Below are positions 32,574 to 60,491 of a stretch of 64,000 nucleotides of DNA, piece after piece. The position numbers and the translations under genes were made by a program. Below the pieces are notes generated by a model. That model ran no database searches. It was not told the origin of the DNA and saw only the letters and a program-made list of their open reading frames with translations. The stretch spans positions 16,282,543 to 16,346,542 of the forward strand of contig CM119267.1 in assembly GCA_051294375.1 (NCBI GenBank), given 5' to 3'. This stretch comes from Paraspadella gotoi. Its lineage: Eukaryota > Animalia > Chaetognatha. Each line of letters opens with the position of its first letter. Position 1 is the stretch's first letter.

Positions 32574-32769
32574 TTTTACTTTCGTCGACCACGGTTATGG
32601 CGGCTTTTGAAAAACCATTTAAAAATACTTTTGTAAAAATAAATAAAAAAAAAATTACCTAATTACCCTAACCCTAAACCCTCCTAACCCTAACCACCCC
32701 TAACCCAAAACCACCCCTAAATCCCCCTTATCCCTAACCCCTCGCTAACCCCGGTGGGCGAAAGTAAAA
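32574..32769. mobile_element. Small inverted-repeat (MITE-like) element containing degenerate (CCCTAA)n telomeric-type repeats
   Basis: The left end TTTTACTTTCGTCGACC and right end GGTGGGCGAAAGTAAAA are near-perfect inverted repeats. An internal CCCTAA/CCTAAC array lies at ~32666-32750. Confidence 0.55.
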
Positions 32770-34081: not shown

Positions 34082-34560
34082 TGTTTGCTTTTTACTTAAA
34101 AGTATTGTAATACTTCATTAAAAACCAGTTTTCTAGTAGACACCATAGAAAACGAAAGTGTTTTTTTCTCATCGAATTATTTAATAGGGCTATTTGGGTT
34201 TGGCTTCTTTTGATAATTGTTACATTTAACAGTTTTTGCGTTGATTTTTTGTTGGTTGAGAACTGAAATTTCGATATACGTATAAGCCTCTCTCTTCTTC
34301 TAATAAGTCACAACTCCATAGGTAAATGAGACAGACGTTAACTGATTAAGAACTTATTTAGTATTTCTCTTTTAATTAAAAAAAAATCTTTTAAGGTCAA
34401 ACTAGTCTATTTTTTTTAAATATTACGTTAAAATGTAATGTATTTTGGTAAAAGAATTTGTAGACTTACACTTGCTTAATAAAATTGTCATTAAATTTCC
34501 CAAAAGGAAAGTTTGTTCGACTTGTTGGGTTCATTGCATCTGACATGTCTTATAGGGGCA

Positions 34561-37244
34561 ATGGACAAACCACTGTCTGATGAAACGCAGAGTCTATCTG
34601 GAAGTGAGAGTTCAGGATCCAGCAGCGCGAGACCGCGGCGTCTTGGAAGAGGACGAGCCAAGTGTGTGTCAAGTAGGTTTAAATATAACTTAACTTAAAA
34701 CTTCTTGAAAATACAATCTTATTTTTTGTATTATTTTTCAAGGCGAAAATTCGGTTCGTCGACCTGGACAGGAAACTCTTTCAGGGTCAGACAAGATGCC
34801 AGTGACTAAATCTGACTCTGACAGTCGTTTGGGCGAAAATAGCAACACCAACTCCCCATCCAATGATGGCCGTATGAGATCATCCCTTCGCGTCAATGCT
34901 GCCGAATTCGTTCCTCGCTCATTTTCTGTCCGTCCTCCTGCCGGTCCTTCTGTTCCTCCTGTTCTTCCGCCGCCAAATCAACAACAACAACAATGCCCCC
35001 CGTCTTCGTCTTCCTCTTCGGCAGCGCAGCCCCCTACGATGCCGAGACGCCGTCGCGTTTCGTCCAACTCCTATCATTTTAACGAAAATGTGGCTATAGA
35101 GTATCTTGAAGAGACTCTGGAAAAGTTGGTTTTGAATCCCGGAAGCTTCGTGGAACTGGTTGATCCACTTGTTGAAGTCCTCAATGGCTGGGTGGATGAC
35201 AATGAGACGCTTTCCCTTATCGTCGATGTGATCTTTCATAAGGCCGTCTCGGAGCCCAACTTTCATTGGACTGGTGCTAAGCTGTGCGGCCACCTGGCGG
35301 GCCACCTCACTGTCAGTCATGAAGGTGGAAGCAACTTCCGACAGCACCTGCTTAAACGTTGCCATGACGAGCACAAATTGCGAGACTCTTTTATCCGCAC
35401 GACCGAAGGCAACAAGCGACTGCACGGTTTTGCCCTTTTCCTCGCTGAACTCTTTCTGTCAATGGAGGTTAACCCTAGTGGTGCTGGTGTTGCGCAACGC
35501 GTCCACATTCTCAGGGGAGCCTTGGTGCAACTTGTTCAGACACTTTTTACCAAACCGACTGATGACAATCTCAAGACTATCGTCAAAGTTTTGAAACTCG
35601 CCGGTAAGGCAGTTATGTCTAGTTTCTTTCCTAAAGCGTAGAAAAAATAATAAAGTCAAGTCGAATCAAAATTCGAATAGTAGATCATGAACATTTAAAA
35701 AAAAAAATTGCCAATTTTCGCATAGCACATATTTATACATAGTATAATAGAAAATTTCAAATTTTAAAATGGTTGTTTTCTTATTTTTGAAAGCAGATTC
35801 GAATTCCTCAAGAAAAGTTGATAAAAAGAAATATAACTCTTTTAAGAAAATTATTTCATTAAGTGGGTCAAAATACTAAAAAACTATTATAATTAACCTA
35901 TAATTAAATTTTAGTTTAAAAAATATATATTTTTAAACTTTTATTTGCTTTCAAAACTTAGAAAAAACGTTTTTAAAATTGTGACATTTTTTATGGTTAG
36001 TACTATGTATAAATATGGGCTAATGCGAAAATTGAGAAATTAAAAAAAAAATTTTTTATATATCAATGTTCTTTACAATAAGACTGTTCATGATCAACTA
36101 TTCGAATTTTTATCGGCCACTTTCACTAAGCCTTATTCTTTACTTCAGTCTGAAATGTTACTTTTTTTGCTGCATGGAAATGCTGGATTTCTGTTTTGAA
36201 TTGTTTTTATTGTATAAAGACCTCAATACTGTATATTTGAGAAGTGGAGGTTTTCAAAAGACTTTTGGAAAGAAAAATTCGCTCTTTATGTTCTCTTTTT
36301 GAGCTGTGGCTTAATTAATTTTTGCGCTGACGGCTTTTTCATTCAATTTTATCCTATATGATATTACAATAAGTCTTTATTTATTCTCATAATATATGAA
36401 TGTCTAACTTGCGGGAACGGCAAACGGGTTGGGTTTATCTTTTTGCTTCTCTTGGTTGCTCCTGCAGTCATTCTAATTAATGTCACCCAGCATGCTTATT
36501 TCCGATGTGTTATGGCCCAGGGTATTTCTCTTAATTAGGAATTATAGTATAGCTTTATCTTATACTTCAGGCGGTGTTCTGGAAGACTGCGAACGTTCCG
36601 AACGCCGGGATACTATGGCAGTGGATATGGATAACACATTCCAATTGATCAAGGATTGCATCCAGGTGCCTACTTTGAGTGAGAACGTCCGCCTCATGCT
36701 TTATTCTGTGATAGAATTGCGGAGTACGAATTGGGGACGACTCGAAGCGGTTCCGGAGCCGCCGCCGCCACCTCCAGCGTTTGGAACACCAACTACCACC
36801 TCGGCCGTTCCTGGTTACATGGAATCCGGTGGAGGCGCTTTAATCCAGGCCGGTCCAGTTTTCTATGGCAACAATGGCATGCCCATTACTGCTCAGGAAG
36901 CCGGCTACATGTCGGAATTAGACTACATCCAGCAACTTCAGTGGGGTGAAGACTATGCTTCGTTCGCAAGTGGCGCGATGAATGGAAGCAGTGGCGAAAA
37001 TGCCCTATACCGACAGGCACCGGCCCAAAATCAAGGTCGTCCTCTTTTGGGTCAGCCACGATACGAGGGAAATGGCCCTTATGACAACTTTGGAGCCGTG
37101 GGCAACGATATGTGGTCCGCTAATGAAGAAATGACAGATGATATGATCGAAGCCTTTGAACAGTTCATGCTCGAGAACCGAACCAACCCTGGGGCCGGCG
37201 ATTTCGGAAGTGGCAATGGCGAAAGATTTGGTCGTGGACTTTGA
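34561..37244 (+). CDS. PAIP1: Poly(A)-binding protein-interacting protein 1 (PAM2 motif + MIF4G + acidic C-terminus)
   Basis: Phase-compatible exons 34561-34672, 34743-35603 and 36571-37244. PAM2 motif SSLRVNAAEFVPRS; MIF4G-like AVSEPNFHWTGAKLC..L, NFRQHLLKRC, FLAELF and VIELRSTNWG; C-terminal DDMIEAFEQF. Confidence 0.9.
35668..36110. mobile_element. Foldback/MITE-like element with long imperfect terminal inverted repeats in PAIP1 intron 2
   Basis: AAAATTCGAATAGTAGATCATGAACA (35668) pairs with TGTTCATGATCAACTATTCGAATTTT (36085-36110). The inner arms TTTTCGCATAGCACATATTTATACATAGTA and TACTATGTATAAATATGGGCTAATGCGAAAA also pair. Confidence 0.75.
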
Positions 37245-37907
37245 TACCTTTTTTTTTAGCGCTTCATTTAAAAGCCCTAATTTATGTTAATTTTAGACTT
37301 CTTCCCTTGCTCTGCGTTTCGCAATACTAGTTTTTAAAAAGATTTCTTAAAAAATAAAATTTTAATGCAAATGTTCTTCAAAGCAAAAGAAAAGATATTG
37401 AAATTCTATTGCAGCAATGCAATTGATATTTTGGTTTGTCACCCATTAAATCAAGTGACTTAGAGGGTATTGTTACGAATTTAACCAAAATACCATTAAT
37501 TGTATGAAAGCTTTGTGTAAAGCTGTTACTTTTGGGTTATTTTTGTTTGGCTCTTCTGTTGATTAATCAGTTTTAGTATCTTTCAGAAATTCTAAATTAT
37601 ATATTAACAAATTCTGTGATAGAATTTGATTCAAAAAAGTGATCAAGGACCCTGTAACATTAATTTTAGATTTTGTATTTGATGTACATGATCGCCATAC
37701 AACTGTCGCTGAATTTTTTCATATTTGCCTCATGATTTGTCGAAGAAGTGAAATCGCTGATAAACTTGTTTCTAATTAAATTGTTATGTTTTACTTCTCA
37801 CAACAGAATTTTTTTTTTTTAAATTGGATCCCAGCGGAAAAAAAAACATCAAAAACAAAAATCTGTTTTTGTCAATTACGACATTCCGCCATGCTTAAAA
37901 GTCCGAC

Positions 37908-38735
37908 ATGACGGAAAAGACTTTTCGTGGTACTGGCTCGGTCGAAGCCCGTTTGAACGAGGAGAGCGACGATTACCCAAACTCCCTATTATCGCAAAAG
38001 CGAAGATCCATCCCTCACGAGAAGGTGGCCGCTTTTCTCGACGACCAGCCGCTCAAGCTGGAACACAAGCGGGCGCGAAATCGGGAAGCAGCTTCTCGCT
38101 GCCGCAAGCGAAAGCTTGATCGAATCGCCGCCCTGGAAACGAGAGTCGCCGAGCTAAACGAAACTAACGAGAGGCTCTTGGAAATCACTTCGATTTTACG
38201 GTCGCAGGTAACCGGTAGTCTCCGATATACTTTCGCGATATACTTTCGCCGACCCCGGCTTTTGACGTCTTTTAACTATTACAAATATATAAAAAATATT
38301 TATTTAATGCAGTTCCCATTATATTGACATTTGAATTTGGTCGGCGATTGCGTATCACATTTTCTAAAACAATGCATGCTGTTTTAGGTGACGCGCCTCA
38401 AACAAGCAGTTATTGAACACGTGACCTCCGGTTGTGACGTCAGTCTTTCTCCGCTTCTCGACGCGTCACCACAACGAGATTCACCACCTCTCTTCAAACC
38501 CTCTTTGATCGCTTCCGAACTGAAATATAACGTGGCTCATTGCGACGTTATCGCCCACGCAGCACATTCACCGACACGACCTTTGCGCTCCCCTCCCCCT
38601 CCGCTTTCCGATTCTCCGGAAGTGGAAGACGTTTGCCTCAACTTGACGGTCTCTTCGTGTCGAAGCCCCGATCTGAAAGAGGTCGTTGAAGAAGAAGGGG
38701 TTTACGAGGAAAATGGTAATTTGGTTAAGAGATGA
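37908..38735 (+). CDS. Jun-like bZIP transcription factor, 2 exons, about 215 aa
   Basis: Exons 37908-38207 and 38388-38735 (phase 0) join to give KRARNREAASRCRKRKLDRIAALETRVAELNETNERLLEITSILRSQ|VTRLKQAVIEHVTSGC. This aligns without gaps to the Jun bZIP [25 protein letters not shown]...QVAQLKQKVMNHVNSGC. Confidence 0.85.
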
Positions 38736-39407
38736 CACCCCCGCACCCTCACGATTGACTTCTCAGAACGAGGCAAAGCCGGAACGAAGCACCTCAGATT
38801 ATTATTATCAACTGATCTCTAGTCAGGTTTAGGTTATTTTGACGCTTAAACTGTATGCGACACTTTTGAAATGCATTTCATGCTTGCAAAATTACGAATC
38901 GCGAATTTCATCAATAGAAAATGTAACCGTTTTGAACTTTCGCTTGTAATACCCTTGATACTAATAAATAGAATACATGATATGTAATAAGATTTTTTAC
39001 TTTAGGGCATCTTATTACCATATATGATTATTTTGGAAAATCTTTCTGTGGATTAGACAGGTTATCATAAATAGAACTTATATACAGAGCTAGTCGAGAA
39101 CTAGGTTAATGCTAATAATTTAATAAGTAAATACTACACTTGCACAATTCTTTATGAAGGTTTATATTTTATTTTTAAAAAGTAGCCCGACCCGAAGGTT
39201 TTTTATAAAAAATTTTCTACACCGTTTCCTGGCATAAATAAAAGGAAAACCAAACCAAATTAAAGAATTGTTAAACTAAGCATTAAAATAATCTGATTAG
39301 CAGATTATGCATGTGAAGAACGGAACCGGAATAAATCGCTTCTGAAGTGTGCTCACTCTTCATTCGTAAAAAAACCTAACTTCCCGAAAAAATCACTGGA
39401 AAAAAAA

Positions 39408-41554
39408 ATGTCCATCACTTCAGAGCAAAAACGGGAAAAACAGTGGTCAACTTTTGCCGACCTTTCTCTCTTCGAAACAGCGTTCTACTCTATCTGCAGC
39501 ATCGCCTACCTGACCTACATTTGCTGCCGAACATTTCTCGCGGCACCCAAGATCTTCAAAATATCAGCAGCCAATTACTTTGCCAACGAGACGGACTGGA
39601 ACTTCAAGATGTCGACGGACGGATGGCGCTGGTTGGGGCCAGCCAAAGACAACCGCGATCTGGAATGGACGATTCTTGGCTTTTTGCTCCAGCAGCACCT
39701 TCACTTGTACGTCGGTCATTCTGTCGCGTCAGCGGCGCTGCGTCGAGCAGGAGTCTCCCATCGCGCCCGTCTGACTATTCTCACGATGGGAGCCGTGGTG
39801 GGCGTCTGTCGCGTCATTGGCGCCCCTTCAGTTTTTAGGTTTAGACTTGTTTACTATAACTAAAGTCTGTTAGAGTATTCTGTAATTATAATTTATGAAA
39901 CAATGTTCATATTGTTACATCCGTTGAGCATGGCTCGTCGCTTCAATTCCGCCACGCGGGACTGTCTGCAAGAAGGCGAGGGTTTTTAACGCAGTTTGAA
40001 AGAAATTTTTAAGCCAAAGTCTAAGAGCGATTTTTAATTTTTCCCTTCGTCTTCAGCCAAATGATTTTCGCCATTTTCGCCCTCATCGTCACTCGCCTCA
40101 CCCGTCGTCTTTTTTGCGTCTGGATGACGACCCTGTCTGGATTGGCCATCCTGCAATACGGCCACATTCTGCTTGGCAGTCATTGGGATCCTGAGAAGCT
40201 TTTTATTTGGGTCATCACGGGAACGTTGACGGTCAACCGAGCTCATAGCTTTTGCCACGAGTTCCTGGCTTCGGAGAGAGAGGGCGCTGGTGATCAGAAG
40301 ACCGGCATCGCCCAGTTCGGCTTCCTAGATCTCGTCAATTACGTTTTCTACTTTCCACTATTTTTCTACGGACCCGTCATGAGCTACAATCAGTTCGTCG
40401 ACGACCTCGAAAGGGATTATGATGGATCGAGATCTATTTCGCTCCGCTCTCTCGTTTGGCAGCTGCTGCGCTTTGCCTTTTGGATCTTGTTTCTAGAGTG
40501 CTTTCTTTTCAGGTTTTTTTGTCTCTTTCTCTTTCCGGCCATCCTTCCTTTGTTGTCTTTATTTATATCACGAAGTCACTGCTAAGTAACATCACAGGTT
40601 TTACGTAAACGTGGCCATCGGGGAGCCCCGCATACTCTGGCGCCTCGACCCGTGGGAATTGGCCGGAGTTGGATTTCTCGCCGGTCAATTCTTTTACGCC
40701 AAGTACCTCGTCATCTACGGTCTACACGGCGTCCTCGCCGCGGTCGACGGAATGTCGACGCCCTCTCCGCCCAAGTGCTCCGCGCGCCTTTACCTCACCT
40801 CGGACATGCTGCAAAACTTCGACAAGGGCTTCTACAACTTTGTCAAGCGCTACATTTACCAGCCGTTGGGAGGGTCACGCCGCGGGGTCGCGCACAGGGT
40901 CGCTTCGGTGTTCTGCTGTTTTCTCTATATCTTCGTGTGGCACGGGAGTCAGCGGTAGGTTCAATTCTTTTGTAAAGAAGGAAGTCGAAATAAGAGACGA
41001 AATTAAATTACTATTTACAAATTTTTTTAAAAGTATTAATTGTTGTGTGTGAACGATCGCCGCATCGCATTCTAATTCATTTTGTATCGCTTTTTCGTCC
41101 TAAAACAAAAGCGCAAAAATAGTTCATAACTAACTAATGCCACCAAAATTCTAGGTACGTTCTTTACTGGTCGCTGGCGAACTTCGTAGGCGTGGTGGCC
41201 GAGTCCGTGGGTCGAGCGGCGTTGCGAACCGACTCTGCTCGCGAGTGGGAGCGTCGCCTTGGGTCTCGCATGTGGCGCCGGCTAAGGGTGCTGGCTGCCC
41301 TGCCCTTTTTCTGCTCATTGGCTATCGGGATGTTTATGTTTTTCGGGATGAACGAGGAAGTGGGGACGGTTTATCGCCAGAGATTCATCGATGAGGGTTT
41401 ATTCTCCGGACATTTTTTCGTCGCCATCTTCGCCATGTTCTGTCAGGCGCAGGCCGCCGTGACGATCTACAAATTCGAAGAGACCGGAAAAATCGCAGAT
41501 CGAGTCGTGTCAATTACATTTTGGTCTCGGGTCGAGAATATTAAAATGGAATAG
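39408..41554 (+). CDS. HHAT: Hedgehog acyltransferase/rasp-like MBOAT protein-cysteine N-palmitoyltransferase
   Basis: Exons 39408-39838, 40057-40512, 40598-40954 and 41155-41554, all with phase-compatible junctions. Motifs: D.RDLEW, YVFYFPLFFYGPVMSYNQF, GQFFYAKYLVIYG, NFDKGFYNFVKRYIYQPLGG, and FVWHG (catalytic His). Confidence 0.88.
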
Positions 41555-41816
41555 AATAGTTTTGATGTATCCGCCAATTAATTTGATAACTTTTACTAAT
41601 ATTAAAATGGTCTGAAACAATGAACAATGTAATTTCTTTCGTTTTTCGATTCCGTCAAGAATGAAATACTTTTTTAGTTCGATGTAGCGGTGGAATCTTA
41701 TGCCAGATGGTATTATTAGTAGTAGAAGTAGTAGAAGAGTAGAAGCCAAGCTTATTTTCATGACTTAACCCACTCCCACCCACTTACGCGATTCCCAATC
41801 GCCGAAAAAATCAAAG

Positions 41817-44800
41817 ATGAAAACGAAATACGAAGAGAACCTGAAATGTCGGGACATGGAGAGAGTCCGCGTCGTCAAGTACATCGTCCGCGACAGCATC
41901 AAGCAAAATTCCTTCGATTCGGAATACGTCGTCGGCGAGGAGATCTTCGACGGCGTCCGTCCATCTTGCTTTCCCTTTCCGGATCTGCCACCTTTGCCGA
42001 CGGAGCCGTCGCCGGGGTGATGCTCCTCGATTATTTTTTTTTTCTTCGACCACTCTGAACCCATTTTTTTCCCCCTTTGTCTTTTGTTTCCTTTCCTTCT
42101 TTTACATTCCCTGGTAAATCTTTCTCAATGTTTTAGTTACGGAAACCATGTTACAGTTTTCTAGAAATAATGGCGGCCAAGCTTCGAGCCGAAGAAGAGG
42201 GAGAGGGAGGGGAGGGTGAAGGAATAGCGAAGGAGACGGCGCCGGAAGGAGAAGAGGGCGGATTCGAGTCGGACGAGGAGCCCAACGTCTATGACGAGTT
42301 CGATATGGAAGGTGTGACTGGCTTAGAATTATATTGATTGCTTATTCATATAATCATTTATTTATTTATTCATTTGCTTAATTATTCATTTACTTGTCTT
42401 AATCGAAAGAGAATGAGAAAACAAATGAACACCGTTTTTCCGTCGGCGTGTTTCTCCGCAGAAGGGGAAGGAGAGGGAGAGGGAGAAGGTGAAGAAATCG
42501 AAGTAGATTTCGAAGAAGCGAAAGGGTCGATCGTATCTTTCAAAAAGCCTCTCCTCAAAATCGTGTCGCGTCACATGTGCATGAAGAGAGTCCACGTTAA
42601 CGACATCCCCGACTGCAGGTTCTTTCCTCTTTGTCCTTCGTTCCTTCGTTCGGGTAAGGCAAGCCCCCCCCCCACTGATTCTTCCAAGATGTCGACACGA
42701 CAAGTTCTTCGCGGTGAAGCGCCTCTACAAACGAACCGACGTTCGTCTGAGACCGACCGAGGTCTTCCAAGTCTGGCGTCTCGTTCATCCGCATCTCGTT
42801 CGCGTCCACGAAGTCTTCGAAGACAAGTTTTGGATCTTCATCGTCGAGGACCTCGTCGACAGCGTGGACATCATTAGCATGCTCAAAGGTTCCGGGGATT
42901 TCTATTGGTCGACAAAGGGAAATAGAAGGAAACGAAAAAAAGTATAAATAAATTATCGAATTACAGATAAAATAATATCTAATTACAGATCAAATCATAT
43001 AAAAATACAGATGAAAATGTAGATCAGAGAAGGGGAACAAAGAGACTTTTTTTTCTGTCTATACACGTTGTTGCAAACTATATGTTACAAACCATAATCA
43101 GTAACAACTCCGAGCCGCCTTTTTGTACTGTCGAGATAACACCGTCTCGTTTTCAACGGATAATATCTCGAGACCTTTTCGAGTCGGTCCCATTTTCTTC
43201 TTGGTCGTCAGAGGTAGACACCCTTTCTGAGAAGTACGTGGCAGCGTTAACGCGGCAGATGCTGCTCGGTCTGAAGGCGATGCACGACGTGGGCGTGGTT
43301 CACCTCAACCTCACCCCGATGAACGTGATCTTCGATCGCGAGTGGGATCGACTCAGGATCGCCGACATCTGCGTTCATCAGCTCGTGGGGGAGCAATCGT
43401 GGAGAAGAACCATCAAACGGTTTCCAGGTTAAGAATTGGAGAGGGATTTTCAGAGCTGCTGTTAAATCTAGTTTATGAAATTGGTACAACCAATGTAATT
43501 TCAATCGATATAATCATGAAATTGATAATTTACTTGTCTTACGTACTAAAATTAAGATAGAAATATAAAAAAGTAATGAATTTAATTATCAAATTTATTT
43601 TACAAATTGATAAAGGGGAGAGGGATTAAGATTATATGATTGTGTGTGTGTGAGAAAGAGAGAGAGAGAGAGAGAGAGTACGTGTGTGTTTGTCAATTTG
43701 TACAGGTAAAAAAATAAAATCATCTGTTGGCAAAAATGACAAATACAACGAAAGTTAGATGTATACGGAGAACAACTCAATAAGATCTTCTTGTGATTTC
43801 CAACCTACTTACTTCTTTGATATTTTTGCTTTTTTCATTAGGTATTGCATAATTCATATATATCTTGTACTACTGAATAAAAATATCCGAATCGAGAAAT
43901 CCCACGACATTTTTTTCTTCTGATTTTTTGACATGATATTTTTACGTATAAGTTACAAGCAATGAATGAGACGATGCTGGATGATTGCTCCATGATGAAA
44001 ACGTCCTAGAAATTTGTAGAATACAAACTGAAAGTCCCGAAAATGAAGGAGAAAAGAAATATGATGTGCTTCTGATAGCTTTTAACTGAACCAAACATCC
44101 TTTCCATTTCCATTGTGCAGTCCACGTTTTTGGTGGTGTGTGTTGAATAGTCTTTTATAATCACGTTTTATACAATCAACGTTTTTTTTTGGTGGGGGGC
44201 GGATTGTTGAATGGTCTTTTATATCCTTTTTATACCGTTCACGCTTTTGGTGGTTATTGTTAAAAATTCTTTTATATCGCTGTTTAAAGAAAGAGAGACA
44301 CTACTAGCCTCAATATCTATTGTCTACTATCCATACAATAGTACTGTTAATGTATTTTTGGACTTGATAAACATTCTTTTATCTTTTAAATAAAGAAAGT
44401 GTAAAACTAATAATTTTATTATTTATAATCAACATCGGTAACTGAATATTATCAGTTAAGAAAAGGGCAGTGGAGAGAAACTCCCACGGAACACAACAGT
44501 TGCCAACTCATCCATCATAAATGGAGGTTTAAATCTGTTTTGTTTCAGACAGTACACCTTTTGTTAAAATCCAGGTTTAACTTTAATATTTTGTCGATTG
44601 TTTTCCGAATCGACGGTAATATATTTTAAACGTGACCGTTGTCATCAGGGTTTTTCCCCGCCGGAAATGATGACGGCTCCGTGTTCGGGCCTTCCGTCTC
44701 TGGACATGTGGGCTGTGGGAATAATCGTCTACATGATGGTCACTCTGGGAAAGCAACCCTTTTTGAAGGACGAGGAGGTAAGTGAACTGTATCTCAATAA

Positions 44801-45443
44801 TATTAAAAGTAATGTAATTCGTTATTTACGATCTGTAATTCTTAACAACGGTTCACAACCTAACATCATTCCAGTACTAAATCCGAACGGAATTAATTAC
44901 AATCATTGCGAAATAATTTCCACCGCCAGAGACAGTGGATTACAAAGCGATAATGCGGGGCAAGGTGGATTGGAGGGACGTTAGGGTGTCGAGATCCGGC
45001 AAGGACTTCATCTCCAAACTGCTCGTCCCGGATCCGAAGGCCAGAATGACGGTGGTGGAGGCGCTGCGACATCCTTGGCAGCAGCTCAAGCGGCGCGACC
45101 GTTCGGACATCTACCTCAAGATCGCAGGTTTCGTTTCGCTGTTATTATAGAGAAAACTCGAATCCACACGAAACGTAACCGAATCAAAACAAAACAAACA
45201 AAAAAACATTTCAGAGCTCCCGCCCGAAGAAGGAGAGGGGGAAGAGGAAGAGCCGGACAACTGCGGTTGCGACATCTCGGGTCAGGAGGACTTCGACGAC
45301 GAGTTCGACTCGGACGAGGAATCCTGTCATTGCGACGAACCGCCTTGGGACGAGATCGTGCGGATCGGTGGCGGCGGTTCGGTCTATTGTTTAGTCTCTT
45401 AATCTTTACTAGTCTGGTTGTCTGTCTTTCGTGCTAATTTTTT

Positions 45444-45536
<93 letters not shown>

Positions 45537-48125
45537 TTTTTAAACAAATTAAATCAAGTCCAAATCCCCGTTGGTCCAGGCATCAACGGTCTCAACAACG
45601 TCGGAGTTCGCCTTTTGAAGGATGCCCTCAAGATGGGTCACATTCAAGTGGCGGCGGTCAACGACGCCAGCGTCGGGACCGACATCGACTATTTGCTCTA
45701 TTTGGTCACATCTGGTCAGCGCGTTTCTTCCGTATAATTAATAAATTCAAAAATAAATTCACGGATTGTCCGTCGAATCGTAGATTCTACGAGGGGCCCG
45801 GCTCGACACGTGAACGCCACCTACGAAGATTCTCATCTCGTCGTTCCAGTCGGACTCGGGACAGGAAAGCAGTTGAAGGTATAAGCGTAATCGATTAGAT
45901 ATCGTATAAGCTATTAGATANNNNNNNNNNATCTCGTCGTTCCAGTTGGACTCGGGACAGGAAAGCAGTTGAAGGTATTAGCGTAATCGATTAGTTATCG
46001 TATAAGCTATTAGTTATATTATTATTACTGTTTGTTTAGTTAAATTAAAAGTTAATATCGAATTAGGTCTACTCGATGAACGCTTCGACGCCGGTCCCGT
46101 GGAAGGCGGCCGGCGTGGAATACGTCTTCGAATGCGAGGGCGCCGCCGAAGGCGTCCTGGAGAACCACTTCAAGGGGGGCGCCAAACGAGTCATCGTCTT
46201 GGGCCCCAACTCGGAAAAGTTTCCCAACATCGTCGTCGGATACAACGACGACGAATACAATCGGAAACTCAAGGTTGACTTTTTGCGTTTTTCTTTCCCT
46301 TGTTTGGTTTCTTCCCCCTATTTTTTTTTTATTATTTTATCATTTTTTTTTGGTATCCTTTGATCATTTTTCTTTTCCTTAATCTCCCTTTTCAATCTCC
46401 GTTTCTTACTTTCTCCCATCCATTACTTCTTTTCTCGATCCCCGCCCATTCAAGATCGTCGGATCCCCCGAAGGCGGAGTCTTCTGTCTCCTTCCTCTGC
46501 TCAAGATTCTCCACGAGACTTACGGCGTCCACCAAGTCTTGGCCACCGAAATCAGGCCCTTTTCGGAGAGGTTCATCACTGTCGACGGTCCATCCAAGTA
46601 GGCGCGATCGATGAGAGTTTTGCAGTTGCGGTCCGAAGATTTATGGGCAATTTTTGTCAGGAATTTAAAAAAAAAAAAATTTCACCGACAATCAGGAGCA
46701 AATGGTGGAGGGAAGGACGCGGTTCCGGCCAGAATATGATCCCGACTCCCAACAGCGCTGGAAAAGTCATTGGAGAAGTCTTTAAGAAGCTCAAAGGTGA
46801 GTTGTCAAATTAAAGGAATGGAAAAGTATGACAATTTAATAGTAATGAAAAAAAGTTTTTTGTTATCAATCTAGAATCAACCGACCAATAAAGCAAGCAA
46901 TGTCAATGCCAAGGAACAAATGAATAAAAAAAACTCATCGCCAATTCCAGGAAAAGTCGAATCGATCTCGATTTCCGTCCCGGCGACGGAAGTTACGGCG
47001 ATGGACGCCACGTTCGTGCTGAGCAACGGCGCCGAGTGGCACCACCTCAAGGAGACGCTGGCGTTGGAGGTGGCCAAGGAAAAATATCAAGACGTCATCT
47101 ACCTCAGCGAACACGAGTTGGTATCCACGGTGAGCGATTGGGAGTGCGTGGCGGTTGCTGTGGGTAGATGAGATCTGAGACATCTGAGATTCTTCTTAAA
47201 CAAGTGTCTTGGCGTAGGACTTTCGGGACGAAACGCACGCCTGCGTGTTGGACATGGAAGCCAGCCTCGCGATAAGTAAGACTGCATTGATTTATTGATT
47301 TTTTTTCTCTTTTCTCGTCGATTATGGATTATCGATTATCCACAAGTTCCCTATTTTCATGAACGACAGTCCGTCTTTCCCTCGATCAGTACATTTCATT
47401 CCCCTCCGTTTACAATTTTCAGACGACACATTCTTCAAGCTCGTCGGATGGTTCAACCATCTCGGCGTCTGTTGCCGCGGCGCCTTGGACTTGGCCACCC
47501 GGATGGCGCACATCGACAAGAGAAACGTCAAACTTGCCGACACGGGTCCAACGGCGGGTCAAAGGTCGATAGGGGTTTTATGTTGTTGTATCTGTTTCTC
47601 TTTGACTAAAAAATACTTCATTGTGTCTTTGTCTTTACAAAATCTTTATTTTCTTAAAGAACGGCAGATGTCACTTCTCCTTAAACATTTCACTCAATAA
47701 AAGAACATCGAACTTTTTCCAAAACTTTGTCAAAGCCTTTGTCTTACGAAACACTACAAAACGATTCATACTTCTACGATTTCTCCTGATCCTCGGAGCT
47801 TCTGTATCGACCCTTTAATCCGTTTAATAACTTATTTCGAAGATTGTACGACACCCTCGCTCTGACCGACCCGAAGAAGCGGAGTAAAGGCTATAGCTAC
47901 GATCAAGGAGCCATAGTTATCGCGCGGGAATTGGCGAAAAAGGAGGCGGCCAAAAAAAAGCCCACGGACATTCGGGCCCCGATGAAGAAACCGTCGCAGC
48001 CGCTTCCGCAGCCGCCGCCGCCGCGGACCAGTGCCCCCGCCGCCATATTAACCGGAGAGTTCGGTTTTAAACCGGTGGAGATTCCCGAACCCGTGCCGGA
48101 GGAGGGCGCGGAAGTAGGGACGTGA
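41817..48125 (+). CDS. Predicted ~915-aa fusion: CAMK-type pseudokinase, acidic linker, inactive GAPDH-like domain, Pro/Lys-rich tail (17 exons)
   Basis: Kinase exons: 41817-42016, 42157-42311, 42462-42618, 42689-42888 (FAVK; HPHLVRVHEVFED), 43212-43427 (HLNLTPMN; IADIC), 44649-44777 (PPE; DMWAVGIIVY), 44932-45127 (KDFISKLL..DP..RMT..EAL.HPW). Linker exon: 45215-45367 (ends IVRI). GAPDH-like exons: 45580-45714 (GINGLNNVG; AVND), 45784-45878 (DSTRG), 46067-46273 (PWKAAGVEYVFEC; GGAKRVIV), 46455-46597 (CLLPLLKILHETYG; TVDGPS), 46696-46796 (WREGRGSGQNMIP), 46951-47129, 47218-47275, 47423-47564 (FFKLVGWFN). Tail exon: 47843-48125. One junction (43427/44649) is off by one base. Confidence 0.8.
45931..46010 (+). 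repeat. Gap-adjacent duplicate of 45835-45920 (end of a GAPDH-like exon)
   Basis: ATCTCGTCGTTCCAG...GCAGTTGAAGGTAT is repeated immediately after a 10-N spacer. Confidence 0.8.
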
Positions 48126-49412: not shown

Positions 49413-52400
49413 TCACGAGGGATCCCTTTTCACGAGCCGAACGTTGTGAAAGTCGTCGGCAAGTTCTGGGAACGCCTCTATGCTCCTGATCGGCTCGGCG
49501 CCGTAGTCCGGCAGGAAGGCGTTTCTGAGGATGTGCACCCGCTGCTTCTCGTTCCAGTCGTAGTCACCAAGCCGCCCGGCCAACAGCAGCTCCTGCTCGT
49601 GCTTCCAGGCGCGGTCGACGGCGCGTTGCTGGGCGTTGCGCAACACGCGGGCACGCTCCTTGTCGCGATTGCTCCCGTAGCGCACGGTGGCCACGGTGTT
49701 GTTCGTGGAGACGCTGACGTCGGTGTGATCGGCTCGTTCGCGGCCGTATACTTCCCCGTGGACGAAACGGTGGACGGTGACTTTGACGCCCGTGTCGAGG
49801 GTGTCAACGTTTCCGACGAGCCCGATGGCGCGGAGGTCGGCCTCCGCGTCGCCGAAGTGGTCCTTCACGAAGTAGTGCGTCTCCTTACCGGCGACGTTGA
49901 AGTGAAGGCCGACGGAGATTGAGTCGTTAAAGAGCTTCGACAACGCCGTCCGCGTCGCGTCGCTGATAGACTCGGAGAATCGGACCGTCGCCCGCCGCGT
50001 GCGGTCGTCGACGGTAAGGACGGCACCGTCGCCGAGAATCGAAGGCAACGGCTTGAAGCGGCTCGTCCCGCCAGAGTTGGCCACGGCGGCGGCGGAGGTG
50101 GATTCGAAAAGCGGACGGCCCAGCCGACCCTGCGAGACTTTGGCGGTGACGCTCTGGAACGCCCGCAGACGCGAGACGAAGGAACATTCTAACGCCGATT
50201 CGACGTTGATTGAGGGCGGCGCCCAGGCGGACGGCGTGATCGACGGCGCCGCGATGGGCGCCGTGGCATAGGGCGACGGTAGCCAGGTCTCCACCGATGG
50301 AATGAGGCGCTCGAGGGAAATGCCGAGAAGGGGGAGCCAAGATTCCATGTCTGTTGGCATCAAAGGTTGAGGGTTAAAACTATTTTTTTTTATTAAGAAC
50401 TAAAAATAGAATCCTGTTTCTCATAATAATTAGTAATTTACTAATTCTATACAACAGATGGCTTGAAATCAAACATCCTTTAACTCACCCTGCATCCGGT
50501 TTCCCTGATCCTCCCTCGCGAACGGATCTCCGAACGCATAGACGTTGATCTTGCGGGGATCCTCGCCCACTACCGGCAAGATGCCGAGATCCGGCGTCAT
50601 CCAGGTCGCCAGTTCCGGATCGTAGACGCGGCGTTTTTCGGTGAAGAAAAGAACTCCGGCGAGGGCGTCGTAGGTGGCGCCGCGGAATCCGAAAGGGAAC
50701 TCCAAGTCGGGCGTCGAATCGTACACGAGGCGTCCGTACGGCGAGTACGACATCTGTTGAGTGGGCGAAGTTATTTTTTCAACTAAGGGCCTTTTATTTT
50801 TGTAACTTGTTCAATTAGCGATCGCCAGATGCCGACAAATGTTCTTTTGTCCGATTGACGTCATCGGTTCAGTTACGGTTTATTGCATTTAAAAAGAATT
50901 ACAAAATGCATTTCGAAGTATTTAGTTATCAAAAATATTTTATCACACCTGCTTGATGAGCGACCCCATGCTGTTGAAGATGGCGACGGGCGAACCGACG
51001 AAATCGGTGGCGACGTAAAAATGACTGTCTTCTCGTTGCATGGCGATCACGTGACCTCGAGTGTCGTAGTGGAAGTGGGTGAGGAACTCCGAACTGGGAA
51101 AAAAAGACGGTAAGCGTCGGGTCAGATTATCTGTTATACAAATTGTTTTCTTGTAATTTAAAAAAAATATTTCATAAGCAGTAACTTGTTACCTGTGATT
51201 GTACATGTGAGTGACCCTGTCGGGATACATCCTATCTCCGTAGAAGTATTGGACCAAGATTCCTCTCGAGTCCCGTTGGGCGACGAGTCGGCCCACTGGA
51301 TCGTGATAGAACCAGACTTGAAAGAACCCGCGCTTGAAGACGTGTTCGAGCTGGCCGACCGAGTTGAAGCTGTACATGGTCGACGCTTTCTGCGCGAGAA
51401 ACCCGTCCGCGTCCCAGCGGACAGCGGAGCTCGAGAAGGTCTGAATCTGATCGCGGGTGTTGTATCTGAAAAAGGGGAGAAAAAACGGAATGGTGAGCAA
51501 AAACCTTGAGAATTTCTTGTTCCATGAATCCGATTCTGTATAATGTATATCAAAATACTTCTTGGAAATAAATTTAAACAATGGCTGTTCTTTTGCAGAA
51601 AGTTCGAAATCCTAATTGCGACTTAATATTATTATCCTTAACTTGACGTTTGTTCTTGATACATCCATCATCAAATCATCCAATCCAATAATGTCTCCCC
51701 CAACCGATCCACTCACCTCCTCTCGTTCATGTTGCCCTTCTCCACCATGCTGACGACGTTGCCGTTCTTGTCGTAGATGAACTTCCACAGATCTTGGTTC
51801 CTCTCTTTGACGGAGTCGAGTCGCCCGTCCAGGTCGTACTTGAGCGTGATCGTCCGCGGCTCCGCGCGACTCCCGATCTTCCGCGTGATAGAGGCGACGC
51901 GTCCCACGTCGTCGTAGACGATGTCTTCGCCGTAGACGAGCGAATTGCTGAACTTCATCTGCGGACGAGGGTAGGGGGTGTTATGAAAGGGGCGAGTTAG
52001 GGAGAAGAGTTTTTTAAATTATAATTGTTATTGAGCTTATTATATATGTATAGCGGCAGAGTTCAAACTTTAACACATTATGCCTTGAAAAGATGACAAA
52101 AATGTTGACCACTAATATCAATTAAATCTTCTAAGTAGAAGTAGAGAAGTAGAGCATCACTTTCCTTTGTTGCATATATGATGTTCATTTGTTTACAAAC
52201 AATCATTAATCAAAGCATTCCTTGCTTCGACACTTTCGTTTCGATTTCTAATCCCGAAAACACGTCAATCAAGATCCACAGAAGCTCCTCCTCGCCACTC
52301 CTGCCCCTAATCCCCCCCTCAACTCACCAGCGTCTTGGCCGGGCGTCCGACGCCGTCTCGTTTGGCGGTGATGGCGACGTTGACGTCGCGCGTGACTTGC

Positions 52401-55400
52401 GTGCGGAGATCGGGACGCGCGACGGTGAAAGACTGAAAGTGGGTCACCAGTCCGGTGATGTTGTCGAAAGCCGTGAGAACGGGAGGCAGGGTGGTCGCGC
52501 CGATTTGGACCTCGAGGTGGGTGGGTCTTTTTTTGAGGGGGAGGGAAACGGGTATTAATAAAAATTGGTTATTTCTTTTTCTCTCTTCGACTGTGTCCAC
52601 AGGCTTACAATAAATTATTATTATTTTTTAAATGTAAATCTTTTTTCCCCCAAAGCTGTTGACTGTCAGTATGTTGGACTGGAGAATATAATTAAAGCCA
52701 TACGTTCAACGTTGAATAATAAATATACTTTTAAATATCGTTTAACATCTGGTTATTGACTTTCCATTCTCCACTCACCTAAAACTGTTGTCGTATTTGT
52801 ACTTGAAGGAGGCTCCCACGATGCGGGCGAGGCCTTCTTCGGCCGCCGTGAAGGCGATCCGCTCCTGCTGCACGAAGACCCCCTGGTGGACGAACTCTTG
52901 GGCGCAGGTGAAGACGGACGCCTTGGGGGACGTAGGGTCGCGGCGGCGCAGGAAAAGACGCGTCGGGAGACCGGAGACGTCGCTGTAGTCGTAGGTGACG
53001 TCGGTGTAGTCGAAAAACATCCGGGAGAGAAGGTGGCGACGCTCAGGGGCATAGTGGAAGTGAACTCTGTGAGGGCGGGGGGGGGGAAAGAAAACGTTGG
53101 GGGGTGTGCAGAGTGAGTTCATGATGAAAGATTAGATTCACATTTCTGTTTTGCAATACATCTAGTTATCATTAATAAACAAGAATTTGAAATTTTAACT
53201 TTTACAACAACAACAAAAACAATGCTCCACTGCTTGTAAACTCTAAACCCATCGGCCACGCCTACCTCTTCTTCTCTGACGGCATCCTGATCTGCTTGAG
53301 CCTCCCGTCGTCGAGGACGTCGATCGTGTACCAGGCGTCTTGATCCGGCGGAAAGTAGAGGATGTGACGGAGACCAATGGTCGTCACTTGCGCGAACTGG
53401 TGCTCGGCGTTAGAGGGCACGAGGATCGACTCGAGGTTTCCGTGCTGATCTCGTCGCATGGTGTAAACGTTGGCCGAAGGAAGCTGGACGCTCGATTTCT
53501 GAGAAATGAAGTAATCAACGATTTAGGAATTTTAGTTTATTCTTTTGAATCTACTTTCATGGATAAATAAATAATTAAAAAAACAAAACAAAACTGCATT
53601 GAAGCGTTTTTGAGTGAAAATCGGTAAGAACTAACCTTGGTTCCGTAAGGGATGTACGTGTAGTGAGTGGCGGCTCCGTTCGCCTCGCGGACGAGATTCA
53701 GGCGTCCGTGTTGATCGTACGCGTACGCCTCGGCCATGTTTCCGCGCTGCCATTTCTGCGATTTGAGAACATTGCTTGGATTACAGTTTTTTTCTACAAC
53801 ATGGTAATATAATTATCATCAAGCCATAAATTTCTTTCATCCCATGATTTAAATTTTTTCCACTACGCACCACCAATCGACCGTTCTGGTCGTAAGTATT
53901 GTTGACGGTTGCGATGTCAGGAGACGCCGGTCGCCATAGCAACGACCTTCCGTGTTTGGCGTCGAAATTGACGGTGAGCAGAGGCTCCATTTGATTATTG
54001 ACGAGGGTTTGAGTCCGGAGATCCTGGTTGTACTCGACGCTTAGGATGACCTCGTTATTAACCTGGCGCGGGGAAAGGCGGGTAGGGCGAAAGGGTGAGG
54101 AGAGAAACGTTTACTACTGATCAACGTCGGGATAGTATAACAAAAGTTCACGTGACGATCAAATTGACGTCAAATATATAAGTGGAGTCACAAATGAAAA
54201 AAAGCCGAAATTAAAAAAAAAGCGCCGTAAAGAATCGAAATAAAAACGGATACAGTTTCGGAACATTCGACCGCCTTGTCTGTTTCTTCTGCTGTCGAAA
54301 TATTTTTGTAGTGAAAAAGTATTCCGTTTTTTTATGCCGGTGAAGGTAAGCTTTAATTTGAGTGAAAATTTTATTTTGTTTTTTTTTTGTAAGCCACAAA
54401 AGCTCAAATCTTTTTAAAAAAACGTAAATTTCCCCCAACTATCGACATGCAATGTTTCAAACAATTATTTCCTTTCTGTGAAAGAAAAAAGAGCCACTTA
54501 TCATTGTTCGAAACGATTTAAATTTATAGCTGATCCGGATTTGGTTGAATTAATTTGTGAAAGAATACAATTATGTAGACATGCAAATTTCAGCAACAAA
54601 AAAAGAGCCTTCTGTGAATTACTAAACCAGTTTATGTGTTGCTGCAACGAATAAAATACCAAGCGCTGAACGCGTGCCCGAATTCAAAATATAATCACTT
54701 AATATTTGAATTCGGATCAACACATAAATTTACTTTTGAGAGCTAGAGAAAGAGAGAAATGAGAAAGCGAGAAATGAGTATGAAAAAAAAGTACCAATAA
54801 GTATTGCCACATGGGCACATAGACTCTTTGTGCGTCGCCGGCCCCACCACCACCTTCGATTCTAAAGGCTTTGGTGTGATTTTTTCGCGCTTTGTTGCGA
54901 ACTTTCTTCTGCAGTTTCTTCTGAATTTTCTTTTTAAAAAAAAAAAACAAGAAAAAAGTGACGATAATAGTTACTAAAAATAAATGACAAGTTCGAAACA
55001 TGCGGATGCAACTACATGAAGTAAGAAAGGGGAAAAAAACCTTCGAAAAGGGGGAAGTTAGTGAAATTTTTTAGGTTAATTTTTTTTAATTTTCCCATTG
55101 ATTTGAAAATAAGTTTCGAATTAACGAAACGATGCGAGAGAAGAAATTCTATTTTTCTACGAGCGTCGAAATTTTATGTATCGAGCAAAAAAGCGTTGCG
55201 CGACATAAGGCAGAACAGATTTAGATATTAGTGATTAATCCAATAATTTGTTTATAATGGCTTTTGGCGGCATTTTACTAAGGTTCTGCACTAAATCGGG
55301 GAACGCTTCTCTTTAGTTATTTGCTTTGTTTAAAGAAACATTTCTATAAAGTCTACAAGCATTTTATAAATATTGGAATAATCCTTCAACCGTAAATCGC

Positions 55401-57569
55401 TTCCGCGTAAACTCACCAAGAGCCTCTTGCCGTTGAATCCTTGCGTGATCGGTTCCAACGTCCTGCGTTGTCTCGACCGAGCACGCGCGCGCTTGCGCAG
55501 TCCCCCGCCGTTCGTGGGGGTGGCCAACGTGCTCGGTACTTGCAGGTAATAACGCCACTCGGCGCGATGCGAAGCTTCTAATGGTGGGTATGGAGAAAGA
55601 GCATACAAATACAATAATTACAATTTTTTACACAAAATGTCGTTAAAAACACGCTTGTAACCCAAAGAGACTATTTAAAAGAATTTCTATCTTATTAGTA
55701 CAAAAAAATTCGTATTTTATCAATAACTATGGAGGTCCCGACAAACTTTTTTCCCCGCCCTTGCGAATCCGCCATCTTACTCGGCAACTGAGCCCTCCTG
55801 ACGATTTGCAGCGGAATGGTGGTGGTTGCTGCGCCGGCGTCCGCGTCGACAGAGCCGAGGACCAGCGTCGGCGGGCGAATGTCGAGAACGAGGCGAGAGT
55901 CGGCAGGGTGGTGTAGCTGCAGTGATCCGTCGTGGGAAGACTGGAGCTGCAGCGGTGGGCTGGATTCTGCGAAAGAAAGGGAGAGAAATGGAATCACAAC
56001 GAACCACAACAAATCAATAAAATCAATAAAAAAATTAATAACATTACAAAATTATCAATCTCTTAATTACTATCTTGATCAAACATCCTGCAAGCCCTCC
56101 CAAAGCCTCGTCGCACTCACTCTTTACGATGCTGAGCGCCCCTCGGTGGGCGATGAGCTTCTCGTCCTCGACTCCGTTGCGTCGGACGTCGACGACGGCG
56201 CCGGTGCTGCCGATGTCTCCGTCCAGCGTCACCACATCGCCCGTCGGCTCTACGACGCCTGTCAAACGTCCGAACGAGTTGTACGTGTAGAAGAACATCT
56301 GTCCGAGCGAATCGTTCTTCGTCTTGAGCAAGTGGGTTCCTTGGGAAAGAGGGGGGAAAGAAAGTTGTAATCACAGAGACATAATGAAGGCGTGTTCCAG
56401 CCTGCTATTTGCCAGATTCAGATTATCAGATATAAACATTGTACGTATTACGTATTACGTACAGAATCTTACCGGGATAATAAGTAAACGCCGTCGTGAA
56501 ATTGTCGGTCGTGTTAAAATGTTGGAGCATGCCCGTGCCTCCGGCCGCCATGTTGATGGAGATCTCGGACTTGTGCCCGTCCGGGTTGACGAGACCCGTC
56601 GGGGACGCGTAGTCGTGGAGGACTCTCAGGCGGTGCGCCTGATCGTCCTCCACCACGGAGAGTTTGCCGTAGAAAGTGTTGACCGTGTAGGAGAAGCGGT
56701 AGAGTTCCGTACCTGGTTATGGTGTTGTAATGTATAATTTTTTTTTGATTATATTCTTTTTTGAACAAAGAAATTTTAATATTTCCCGATAAATTAATTA
56801 TTCTGATCAAATCCAGAATTCCCAATTTATACACTCAATCAAGTTAACTCACGCAATCAATCATTAAATAAGTAATGAACAAATGAAATGATTATTAAAT
56901 AAATGAATGAATTAATGAATCAACGAATCAATCAGTTAATCAATAAATATTTTTTAAAAAAATGAATGTACCAGTAATGATGTTTTTGGTGGCGACGTGC
57001 TGCCCGTGTCTATTAAACACGTACAACTCCTGCGTCTCCGGCGAGAAGACCTCGTACTGCCGGAATTTGTTCTGTTCGGGCAGAACGGCCTGGACCGATC
57101 TGACTCGGAGGTTGCCCTGGGTGTGGGAAAAGGGGAAAGAGGTTATTCCTCGAGTCGGCGGCCGCGGAATCGATTCCTGACCCGGCGAAGTCACTCACCT
57201 GATCGGCGATGTGCAGCGTGTTGTCCGGGGTGACCGTGATGGAGGTGGGGAGGTAGAGGAGGGCGTCAAGGGCGACCGAAACGTCAGCGTCGAAGCATTT
57301 GCACGTCATCTCTTGGCAATCGCACTTGGGGTCGCCGCCTGGGGTGTAAATAAATAGATTTAAATAAATAGATAAATAAGTATATAAATAAATAAATACA
57401 TAAATAGATTATTAATTAAATACAACATAAATATATGTATGAATAAATGAATAAATTTAAAATTAAATACAAAAAAATGAATAAATAAATACTATTAAAT
57501 AGATTTAAATGAATACCTACAAAAATAAAAAAATAAATAAATAATTAAATAAATAAATAAATAAATAAA

Positions 57570-57600
<31 letters not shown>

Positions 57601-57676
57601 AAATATAAAGAAACAAATAAATAATAAATAAATAATAAATACATAAACAACAAATAAATAAAATAAATAAATATAA

Positions 57677-57707
<31 letters not shown>

Positions 57708-60447: not shown

Positions 60448-60491
<44 letters not shown>

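What the first reader, a model, noticed from the sequence alone, without database searches (positions are those of the whole stretch)
41817..48125. Double pseudoenzyme: CAMK-type pseudokinase spliced in frame to a dead GAPDH
Seen: the last kinase exon (...EALRHPW...YLKIA G|gt at 45127) joins in phase 1 to an acidic exon (45215-45367, ending WDEIVRI G|gt). That exon joins in phase 1 to 45580, giving IVRIGINGLNNVG, the GAPDH N-terminal strand (VKVG(V/I)NGFGRIG). The GAPDH half has no start codon of its own, and both introns are short (87 and 212 bp). All GAPDH exons stay open and colinear with canonical GAPDH, and both halves lack catalytic residues. Established: GAPDH is normally a stand-alone ~335-aa enzyme, and I know of no described kinase-GAPDH fusion family. 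Inference: this is a lineage-specific scaffold or sensor that links a GAPDH oligomerisation surface to a kinase-fold interaction module. It could be a sperm/ciliary structural protein, by analogy to flagellar GAPDHS.
Basis: partly seen in the sequence, partly recalled or inferred. Interest (0 to 1): 0.92.

Follow-up and report, generated by a model that had tools for sequence, protein, structure and literature searches.

The report
Conserved dead kinase–dead GAPDH fusion
An invertebrate gene joins a protein-kinase domain and a whole GAPDH domain in one spliced protein, both missing their catalytic residues and kept that way in distant relatives, so two classic enzymes were likely rebuilt into one non-catalytic scaffold.

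Summary
Confirmed and extended. A 17-exon gene (41817-48125, 916 aa) joins a CAMK-group kinase domain, an acidic linker and a complete GAPDH domain. Contigs of one probable RNA run splice across the fusion: 45367/45580 is listed as a joint, and 45127/45215 follows exactly from depth. Two unnamed environmental proteins carry the same fusion in one reading frame: P0258 (920 aa, full length, 57% identical) and P0126 (427 aa, 53%). All three lack the GAPDH catalytic Cys, His and Arg; both full-length kinases lack the catalytic Asp. The best-conserved segment is a CxC...CxC acidic motif (84-88%) just before GAPDH. The GAPDH fold is predicted intact (TM 0.91-0.93). No named database protein or paper with this architecture turned up. 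Likely mechanism (inferred): a dead-GAPDH oligomer hub displaying pseudokinase arms. Oligomerisation, ligand binding and tissue are untested; the sperm/cilia idea has a trypanosome precedent but no evidence here. The animal group is unidentified: a long-branch clade known here only from environmental sequences.

The parts
41817..42016 (+). Exon 1: start, N-terminal segment, likely first kinase strand (inferred), start of the insert
   Evidence: X9 record 23 covers 41773-42015 and joins 42156; residues 1-48 are 52% identical to P0258; no Pfam or PDB kinase hit
42157..42618 (+). Exons 2-3 (42157-42311, 42462-42618): acidic insert with a conserved N-terminal part, then entry into the kinase N-lobe
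   Evidence: residues 49-156 are 56% identical to P0258
42689..42888 (+). Exon 4: kinase N-lobe; beta-3 Lys kept (codon 42717)
   Evidence: Pkinase E 5.7e-4
43212..43427 (+). Exon 5: catalytic loop HRD changed to H-L-N (Asn codon 43307), Asn171 kept, DFG changed to D-I-C (43364)
   Evidence: Pkinase E 2.7e-7; alignments
44649..44777 (+). Exon 6: activation-segment end and helix F; one base out of register in the window (likely assembly error)
   Evidence: tables 5, 5c, 8
44930..45127 (+). Exon 7: kinase C-lobe end and post-kinase segment; phase-1 donor
   Evidence: PDB hits CHK2, twitchin, CASK, DAPK1
45215..45367 (+). Exon 8: acidic linker with CxC...CxC motif (Cys codons 45262, 45268, 45325, 45331) and the first GAPDH strand
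   Evidence: 28 of 32 and 27 of 32 identical to P0258 and P0126; no Pfam or PDB match; joint to 45580 listed in X9
45580..46273 (+). Exons 9-11 (45580-45714, 45784-45878, 46067-46273): GAPDH NAD-binding domain; second Gly of the GxGxxG loop replaced
46455..47564 (+). Exons 12-16 (46455-46597, 46696-46796, 46951-47129, 47218-47275, 47423-47564): GAPDH catalytic domain; Cys to Gly (46473), His to Arg (46554), Arg to Ser (46974); S-loop kept
   Evidence: 33% identity to lungfish GAPDH P0001 over 340 columns; joints
47843..48125 (+). Exon 17: C-terminal Pro-rich tail with short conserved blocks, stop
   Evidence: residues 806-915 are 49.5% identical to P0258; joint 47561/47840; no usable Atlas hit

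Best explanation
This is one spliced gene for a 916-aa protein, a CAMK-group kinase domain fused through an acidic Cys-motif linker to a GAPDH domain with both catalytic sites lost, and it likely works as a non-enzymatic scaffold in which the GAPDH domain would oligomerise and display the pseudokinase domains. Shown: exon structure, splicing across the fusion, the same fusion in two divergent homologs, loss of catalytic residues in all of them, highest conservation in the CxC...CxC linker. Predicted: intact GAPDH fold. Inferred: (1) a spare GAPDH copy was joined to a kinase gene in the ancestor of the clade, diverged fast and was then held under constraint; (2) the GAPDH domain forms the usual tetramer, alone or with active GAPDH; (3) the kinase domain binds partners and perhaps ATP-Mg but does not phosphorylate; (4) the four Cys bind a metal or switch with redox state and so fix the kinase-to-hub geometry; (5) the acidic and Pro-rich arms tether the complex to a cytoskeletal structure, flagellar or muscle.
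For: Splicing. Homologs: P0258 (Pkinase E 7.8e-34, Gp_dh_C 1.4e-30, Gp_dh_N 5e-13) and P0126 (residues 354-774 at 53%, E 1e-154). Catalytic loss: Cys to G/G/G, His to R/K/K, Arg to S/Y/C, Thr/Gly phosphate-site pair changed in all three, Gly10 to N/N/T; kinase HRD to H-L-N and H-H-N; roles of these residues from PMC5119734 and PMC4718504 (passages). Constraint: 5 of 5 listed exonic differences between runs are synonymous (chance 0.0006-0.004); 43 GAPDH positions are invariant in the three and rare in 15 canonical GAPDHs; tree stem 1.45 (100/100) against 0.39-0.69 from the clade's root to the tips. Fold: pLDDT mostly 80-98 over 451-790 with dips at short loops, TM 0.91-0.93 to solved GAPDHs. 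Oligomer surface: S-loop 14 of 26 and 16 of 26 identical to P0001, as much as canonical controls (13 and 16 of 26); interface segments 40% and 47% identical to P0001 against 30% and 32% elsewhere (p 0.13 and 0.014).
Against: Interface segments are not more conserved among the homologs than the rest (56 of 101 against 133 of 230; p 0.72), and the P interface has diverged from canonical GAPDH (16 and 21 of 46 against 32 and 38 of 46 in controls). The S-loop, linker, kinase and tail are low-confidence in the model, so nothing structural supports steps 3-5. The kinase keeps Lys72, Asn171 and Asp184, and sequence alone does not predict nucleotide binding reliably (PMC4718504). The SNP test rests on 5 sites among 40 of 48 rows. 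Transcript evidence for this organism is one run whose RNA status is the tool's guess. No tissue data.
Confidence: 0.58

Rival explanations
1. Ligand or redox sensor: the dead GAPDH pocket or the Cys linker senses NAD(H), a sugar phosphate, zinc or oxidation, and the pseudokinase passes the signal on as a conformational switch (allosteric control of active GAPDH or of an active CAMK).
For: Four invariant Cys in the most conserved segment, directly before the NAD-binding strand; Asp33 of the NAD site kept in all three; kinase Lys72, Asn171, Asp184 kept. A retained cofactor pocket was also suggested for TbGAPDHL (PMC4106842).
Against: Second Gly and Arg of the dinucleotide-binding loop are replaced in all three, and the substrate-phosphate residues are lost. 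No ligand test was possible.
Confidence: 0.2
2. Purely structural bulk protein (flagellar accessory, sarcomeric or crystallin-like), where both folds are kept as stable building blocks with no signalling role.
For: Dead GAPDH is a paraflagellar-rod component in trypanosomes (PMC4106842, abstract and passages); twitchin, DAPK, obscurin and MLCK-family kinases are among the PDB matches; 57-60% identity between homologs is like the 52% mean among GAPDHL orthologs.
Against: No location data. Retained nucleotide-binding residues and an invariant Cys motif are more than a filler would need. Overlaps with the best explanation and differs only in lacking regulated partners.
Confidence: 0.12
3. Atypical active enzyme: the kinase has weak phosphotransfer activity (as reported for some HRN-type pseudokinases, recalled), or the GAPDH fold has a new chemistry using family-specific residues.
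For: Lys72, Asn171, Asp184 and the APE-like motif are kept; family-specific invariant residues lie around the old active site (Thr175 to Glu, Ser146 to Gly, Ala148 to Pro).
Against: Catalytic base Asp and Lys168 are lost in both full-length kinases; no Gly-rich loop is matched (Pfam match starts at model position 25); no nucleophile is conserved in the GAPDH site, and the second Cys is Ser in P0126.
Confidence: 0.07
4. Not a real fusion: adjacent genes of an operon-like cluster joined by read-through, mis-prediction or mis-assembly, or a decaying pseudogene pair.
For: The genes upstream are co-oriented and closely spaced; the window has assembly errors inside the gene; no single contig spans the whole stretch.
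Against: The junction falls inside the first GAPDH strand with no ATG available; spliced contigs cross it at about 350-fold depth with no extra cover in introns 7 or 8; two independent homologs have the fusion in one open frame; exonic differences are synonymous.
Confidence: 0.03

Closest known systems
Trypanosomatid GAPDHL (and PGKL), PMC4106842
   Same: GAPDH homolog predicted inactive, catalytic residues replaced, about 52% mean identity among orthologs, kept across a clade; GAPDHL is a paraflagellar-rod component. PGKL shows a dead glycolytic enzyme fused to other domains.
   Different: GAPDHL is not described as fused to a protein kinase in the parts read; it keeps the GINGFG loop, which is altered here; kinetoplastid, so an independent origin is inferred (not tested on a tree). 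Null mutants had no phenotype in culture.
TPI-GAPDH fusion (stramenopiles, cercozoans, Thecamonas) and GAPDH-enolase transcriptional fusion (dinoflagellates), PMC3527533
   Same: GAPDH as one half of a gene fusion.
   Different: Partners are glycolytic enzymes in protists and the role is metabolic; here the partner is a protein kinase domain in an animal and both halves lack catalytic residues.
CAMK-group kinases and pseudokinases (CaMKIV, CaMKI, DAPK1, phosphorylase kinase, twitchin, CASK, CHK2)
   Same: Top PDB sequence matches of the kinase part.
   Different: Catalytic Asp replaced by Asn, DFG changed, Gly-rich loop not matched, about 90-110 extra residues in the N-terminal part, GAPDH domain in place of usual C-terminal modules. 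Subfamily not resolved.
Sperm GAPDHS (vertebrates)
   Same: GAPDH with an added low-complexity arm for anchoring (recalled; seen only as search listing).
   Different: GAPDHS is active and has no kinase (recalled); it does not rank above somatic GAPDHs as a match to P0258 (186.9 against 203.2 bits).
CP12 / GapB C-terminal extension (recalled)
   Same: Acidic, Cys-pair, disordered peptide next to GAPDH: a functional analogy only.
   Different: No Pfam match of the linker exon at E up to 10; different Cys spacing and position; photosynthetic lineages.

Membership tests
GAPDH (phosphorylating, active enzyme) | Gp_dh_N and Gp_dh_C domains and GAPDH fold | tested here: met
   P0258 passes both Pfam cut-offs; model TM 0.91-0.93; window protein 33% to P0001 over the full domain
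GAPDH (phosphorylating, active enzyme) | Catalytic Cys and His, phosphate-binding Arg/Thr | tested here: not met
   Cys to Gly, His to Arg/Lys, Arg lost in 3 of 3 sequences
GAPDH (phosphorylating, active enzyme) | GxGxxG NAD-binding loop | tested here: not met
   second Gly is Asn, Asn, Thr; following Arg lost; Asp33 kept
GAPDH (phosphorylating, active enzyme) | Homotetramer | tested here: inconclusive
CAMK-group protein kinase (active) | Kinase domain closest to CAMK-group members | tested here: met
   Pkinase E 7.8e-34; top PDB hits CAMK group (the profile included 4 unrelated kinase fragments)
CAMK-group protein kinase (active) | Catalytic Asp of HRD | tested here: not met
   Asn in window and P0258
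CAMK-group protein kinase (active) | Gly-rich loop | tested here: not met
   Pfam positions 1-24 unmatched; exon 1 has no kinase hit
Pseudokinase (sequence definition, PMC4718504) | Lacks at least one of beta-3 Lys, HRD Asp, DFG Asp | tested here: met
   HRD Asp absent; Lys and DFG Asp present
Pseudokinase (sequence definition, PMC4718504) | No phosphotransfer activity | not testable with these tools
   needs an assay
Trypanosomatid GAPDHL | Inactive GAPDH homolog | tested here: met
Trypanosomatid GAPDHL | Kinetoplastid ortholog group | not tested
   no GAPDHL sequence was in the tree; host is an animal (teneurin, PGES2 relatives)
Trypanosomatid GAPDHL | Flagellar location | not testable with these tools
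   no tissue or location data
TPI-GAPDH / GAPDH-enolase fusions | Partner is a glycolytic enzyme | tested here: not met
   partner is a Pkinase domain
CP12 / GapB extension | CP12 domain sequence | tested here: not met
   linker exon has 0 Pfam families at E up to 10 and 0 PDB hits

The most novel reading that the evidence does not exclude
A clade-defining animal protein in which a dead GAPDH tetramer is the assembly hub for four pseudokinase arms, co-assembling with active GAPDH, and a new acidic CxC...CxC metal/redox module couples the two: a device that anchors or gates glycolysis on a cytoskeletal structure (sperm tail, sensory cilia or fast muscle).
Probability: 0.25. Interest if true: 0.88.

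Novelty: new variant of a known kind. Interest (0 to 1): 0.72.

Why it matters
Pseudokinases, dead GAPDHs and GAPDH fusions are each known, but a protein kinase domain fused to GAPDH with both sites dead was not found in named databases or in the paper searches made here. It is conserved across a clade whose members differ by 40-47% in this protein, so it is an old, selected invention. It gives a clean test of GAPDH's non-enzymatic roles in an animal, because catalysis is removed by nature; it offers a new conserved Cys motif of no known family; and it may be a molecular marker of a poorly sampled animal lineage.

Tried and rejected
No whole genome is held, so copy number and the canonical GAPDH of this organism were not seen. 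Word-indexed search with exon 11 gave 1 of 27 candidates, a canonical GAPDH. Metagenome scan with kinase exon 5 gave 7 loci from 206 stretches, all unrelated kinases at 23-30%. Of 135 hits, only P0126 also matched the kinase side; P0122 and P0123 are single-exon fragments; the others inspected are ordinary GAPDHs. Atlas searches gave nothing usable. Single-sequence folding of P0126 failed (pLDDT 33.6). Alignments A2 and A3 placed kinase fragments on the GAPDH domain and were dropped; the kinase part of the final model is unresolved. A second read-laying was not obtained, so the 45127/45215 joint rests on depth arithmetic and homologs. No listed run is on record as RNA. Exons 12 and 16 were out of frame and were rescanned. 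The bacterial promoter scan is irrelevant for an animal. Four look-ups of earlier findings returned nothing. Rejected: two separate genes; pseudogene; CP12 homology; GAPDHS orthology. Arrow worms (chaetognaths) were considered as the host group only as a guess from the long branch and the environmental-only relatives; no call tests it.
Full report
Observation. The window is animal DNA (teneurin, ABCB, PGES2-like, bZIP and MBOAT genes nearby). From the sequence I built a 17-exon model, 41817-48125, 2751 nt, all 16 introns GT..AG. The first GAPDH strand is split across exons 8 and 9, and 45128-45600 holds no ATG in any frame. Read straight from the window the frame breaks in exon 6, which is one base out of register at both ends. 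The X9 contig differs from the window by one base at each end of that exon, a DNA contig of X5 has two gaps over it, and homolog P0258 is open through it, so this is most likely an assembly error.

Splicing. Nine runs from 3 studies hold the stretch; I laid 4 of them. X9, whose RNA status is the tool's guess, has 13 joints among the 15 listed (15 more not shown), each at a modelled intron and none in X1, X2 or X5. Joints 43428/44652 and 44773/44928 (kinase) and 45366/45579, 45713/45783, 45876/46065 (linker to GAPDH, GAPDH) all carry depth 356.4, which points to one contig. The 45127/45215 joint is not listed, but five bins around the fusion match the spliced model within 0.1, including 223.9 for the bin that holds that intron, where 356.4 would be expected if it were unspliced. 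There is thus no contig evidence for a kinase-only or GAPDH-only transcript, though contigs drop rare forms. No listed piece spans the whole gene.

Relatives. phmmer with GAPDH exon 11 against 1.84 billion representatives gave 135 hits. P0126 (427 aa, 2522-nt contig) aligns to residues 354-774 at 53% and holds the kinase C-lobe end, the linker and most of the GAPDH domain in one frame. A profile of the linker then found 2 proteins among 35 candidates: P0126 and P0258 (920 aa, 3276-nt contig), which has Pkinase, Gp_dh_N and Gp_dh_C above Pfam cut-offs. P0258 is colinear with my model end to end: kinase 59.8%, GAPDH 57.2%, Cys linker 87.5%, tail 49.5%. An unbroken 920-codon frame on a 3.3-kb contig implies a spliced transcript (inference). 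P0122 and P0123/P0257 are single-exon fragments that stop matching at the same intron position as window exon 11; P0257 nearly equals P0258 there. None carries a name. The three GAPDH-like domains form one clade (100/100) on a stem of 1.45, with the window's as sister to the other two (22 canonical rows, deeper placement unresolved). The neighbouring PGES2-like gene gives the same shape: window plus 6 unnamed environmental proteins (100/100, stem 1.53), apart from the mollusc and arthropod clades, best named hits 49% (31 rows, 30 chosen from 120 listed). So the fusion likely predates a deep split within one poorly sampled invertebrate group. I could not name the group. The homologs could include paralogs.

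Active sites. Against 15 canonical GAPDHs, 56 columns are near-invariant; 26 are kept in all family members, 15 lost in all, 15 mixed. The catalytic Cys is Gly in 3 of 3, the His is Arg or Lys, the phosphate-binding Arg is lost, and the second Gly and the Arg of the NAD loop are replaced, while Asp33 stays (roles from PMC5119734, passages and section 7 read). In the kinase (window and P0258) the beta-3 Lys, Asn171 and the DFG Asp stay, the HRD Asp is Asn, Lys168 is Thr, and the Gly-rich loop is not matched (roles from PMC4718504, passages). My reading that exon 1 holds the first kinase strand, with a 90-110 residue insert behind it, rests on a recalled resemblance and got no search support. 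Closest solved kinases are CAMK-group. Five of 5 exonic differences among the 40 of 48 rows listed are synonymous.

Structure. AlphaFold2 on P0258 with a 43-row alignment gave a confident GAPDH domain, with the S-loop, linker, kinase and tail below pLDDT 50; the kinase had almost no alignment depth. Foldseek matches are GAPDHs at TM 0.90-0.93. Using interface ranges from PMC5119734 shifted by two residues (approximate), the S-loop is as close to canonical GAPDH as canonical controls are, and interface segments are closer to canonical than the rest (p 0.13 and 0.014), but they are not better conserved within the family (p 0.72) and the P interface has drifted. Oligomerisation is therefore likely but not shown.

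Mechanism. Best reading (0.58): a non-catalytic scaffold with a dead-GAPDH hub, pseudokinase arms and a Cys-motif hinge. Rivals: ligand/redox sensor (0.20), plain structural protein (0.12), atypical enzyme (0.07), artefact (0.03). That the fused, doubly degenerate gene is real and conserved I put near 0.95; the lower figure is for how it works.

Prior art. Ten searches of the held library; those aimed at this architecture were 14, 24, 28 and 94. In one search, 40 of 45 papers were listed and none held the terms kinase-GAPDH, GAPDH-kinase, pseudokinase fused or dead GAPDH; 5 were not seen. Closest: trypanosome GAPDHL, a predicted-inactive paraflagellar-rod protein with no null phenotype in culture (PMC4106842: abstract, passages, section 12), and TPI-GAPDH and GAPDH-enolase fusions in protists (PMC3527533: passages). 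A chaetognath genome paper (PMC12460157), checked because of the guessed host group, has no GAPDH or kinase term in its main text and no GAPDH or pseudokinase term in 3 supplementary PDFs (term searches only); its spreadsheet could not be read and may list such a gene. Subscription journals are not covered, and an unnamed gene model may exist in a genome annotation.

Verdict. Real, expressed, conserved, and apparently undescribed as an architecture; built from known kinds of parts (pseudokinase, dead GAPDH), hence a new variant of a known kind. Interest 0.72.

Noticed in passing
window 32879-48125: Five co-oriented, fairly closely spaced genes (PGES2-like, MIF4G protein, bZIP, MBOAT, the fusion; 263 nt from MBOAT stop to fusion ATG): operon-like. 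A T-rich acceptor lies about 26 nt before the PGES2 ATG. The X9 contig of the fusion starts at 41773 without a foreign leader.
   Followed up: partly
window 44649-44777 and 43700-44600: Many small indels and mismatches against all runs in intron 5 and two one-base errors at exon 6: a low-quality patch of the assembly.
   Followed up: partly
window 45921-46020: N gap followed by a near-copy of the end of exon 10 and its donor; skipped by DNA contigs of X1 and X5, so an assembly duplication.
   Followed up: yes
window 32660-32750: Degenerate CCCTAA (telomere-like) repeats upstream of the intronless PGES2-like gene.
   Followed up: no
window 1000-2400 and 5500-7000; 13450-14800 and 14900-16000: Pairs of near-identical segments with frameshifted second copies in the ORF list: tandem duplicates or uncollapsed haplotypes.
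   Followed up: no
window 49413-63800, minus strand: Teneurin gene converging on the fusion gene; its last exon has the usual ABD and Tox-GHH domains. The fusion's 3' untranslated contig (1463 nt from 47840) may run close to it.
   Followed up: partly
window 18789-25079: ABCB/MDR-type transporter with one very long exon (22669-24651).
   Followed up: partly
protein P0126: Its similarity begins at the exon 6/7 boundary and ends at the exon 15/16 boundary of the window model, as a partly spliced transcript would.
   Followed up: no
window 41961-42190 (residues 49-80): A Pro-rich then helical-looking block inside the N-terminal insert is strongly conserved with P0258: a second candidate binding motif.
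   Followed up: no
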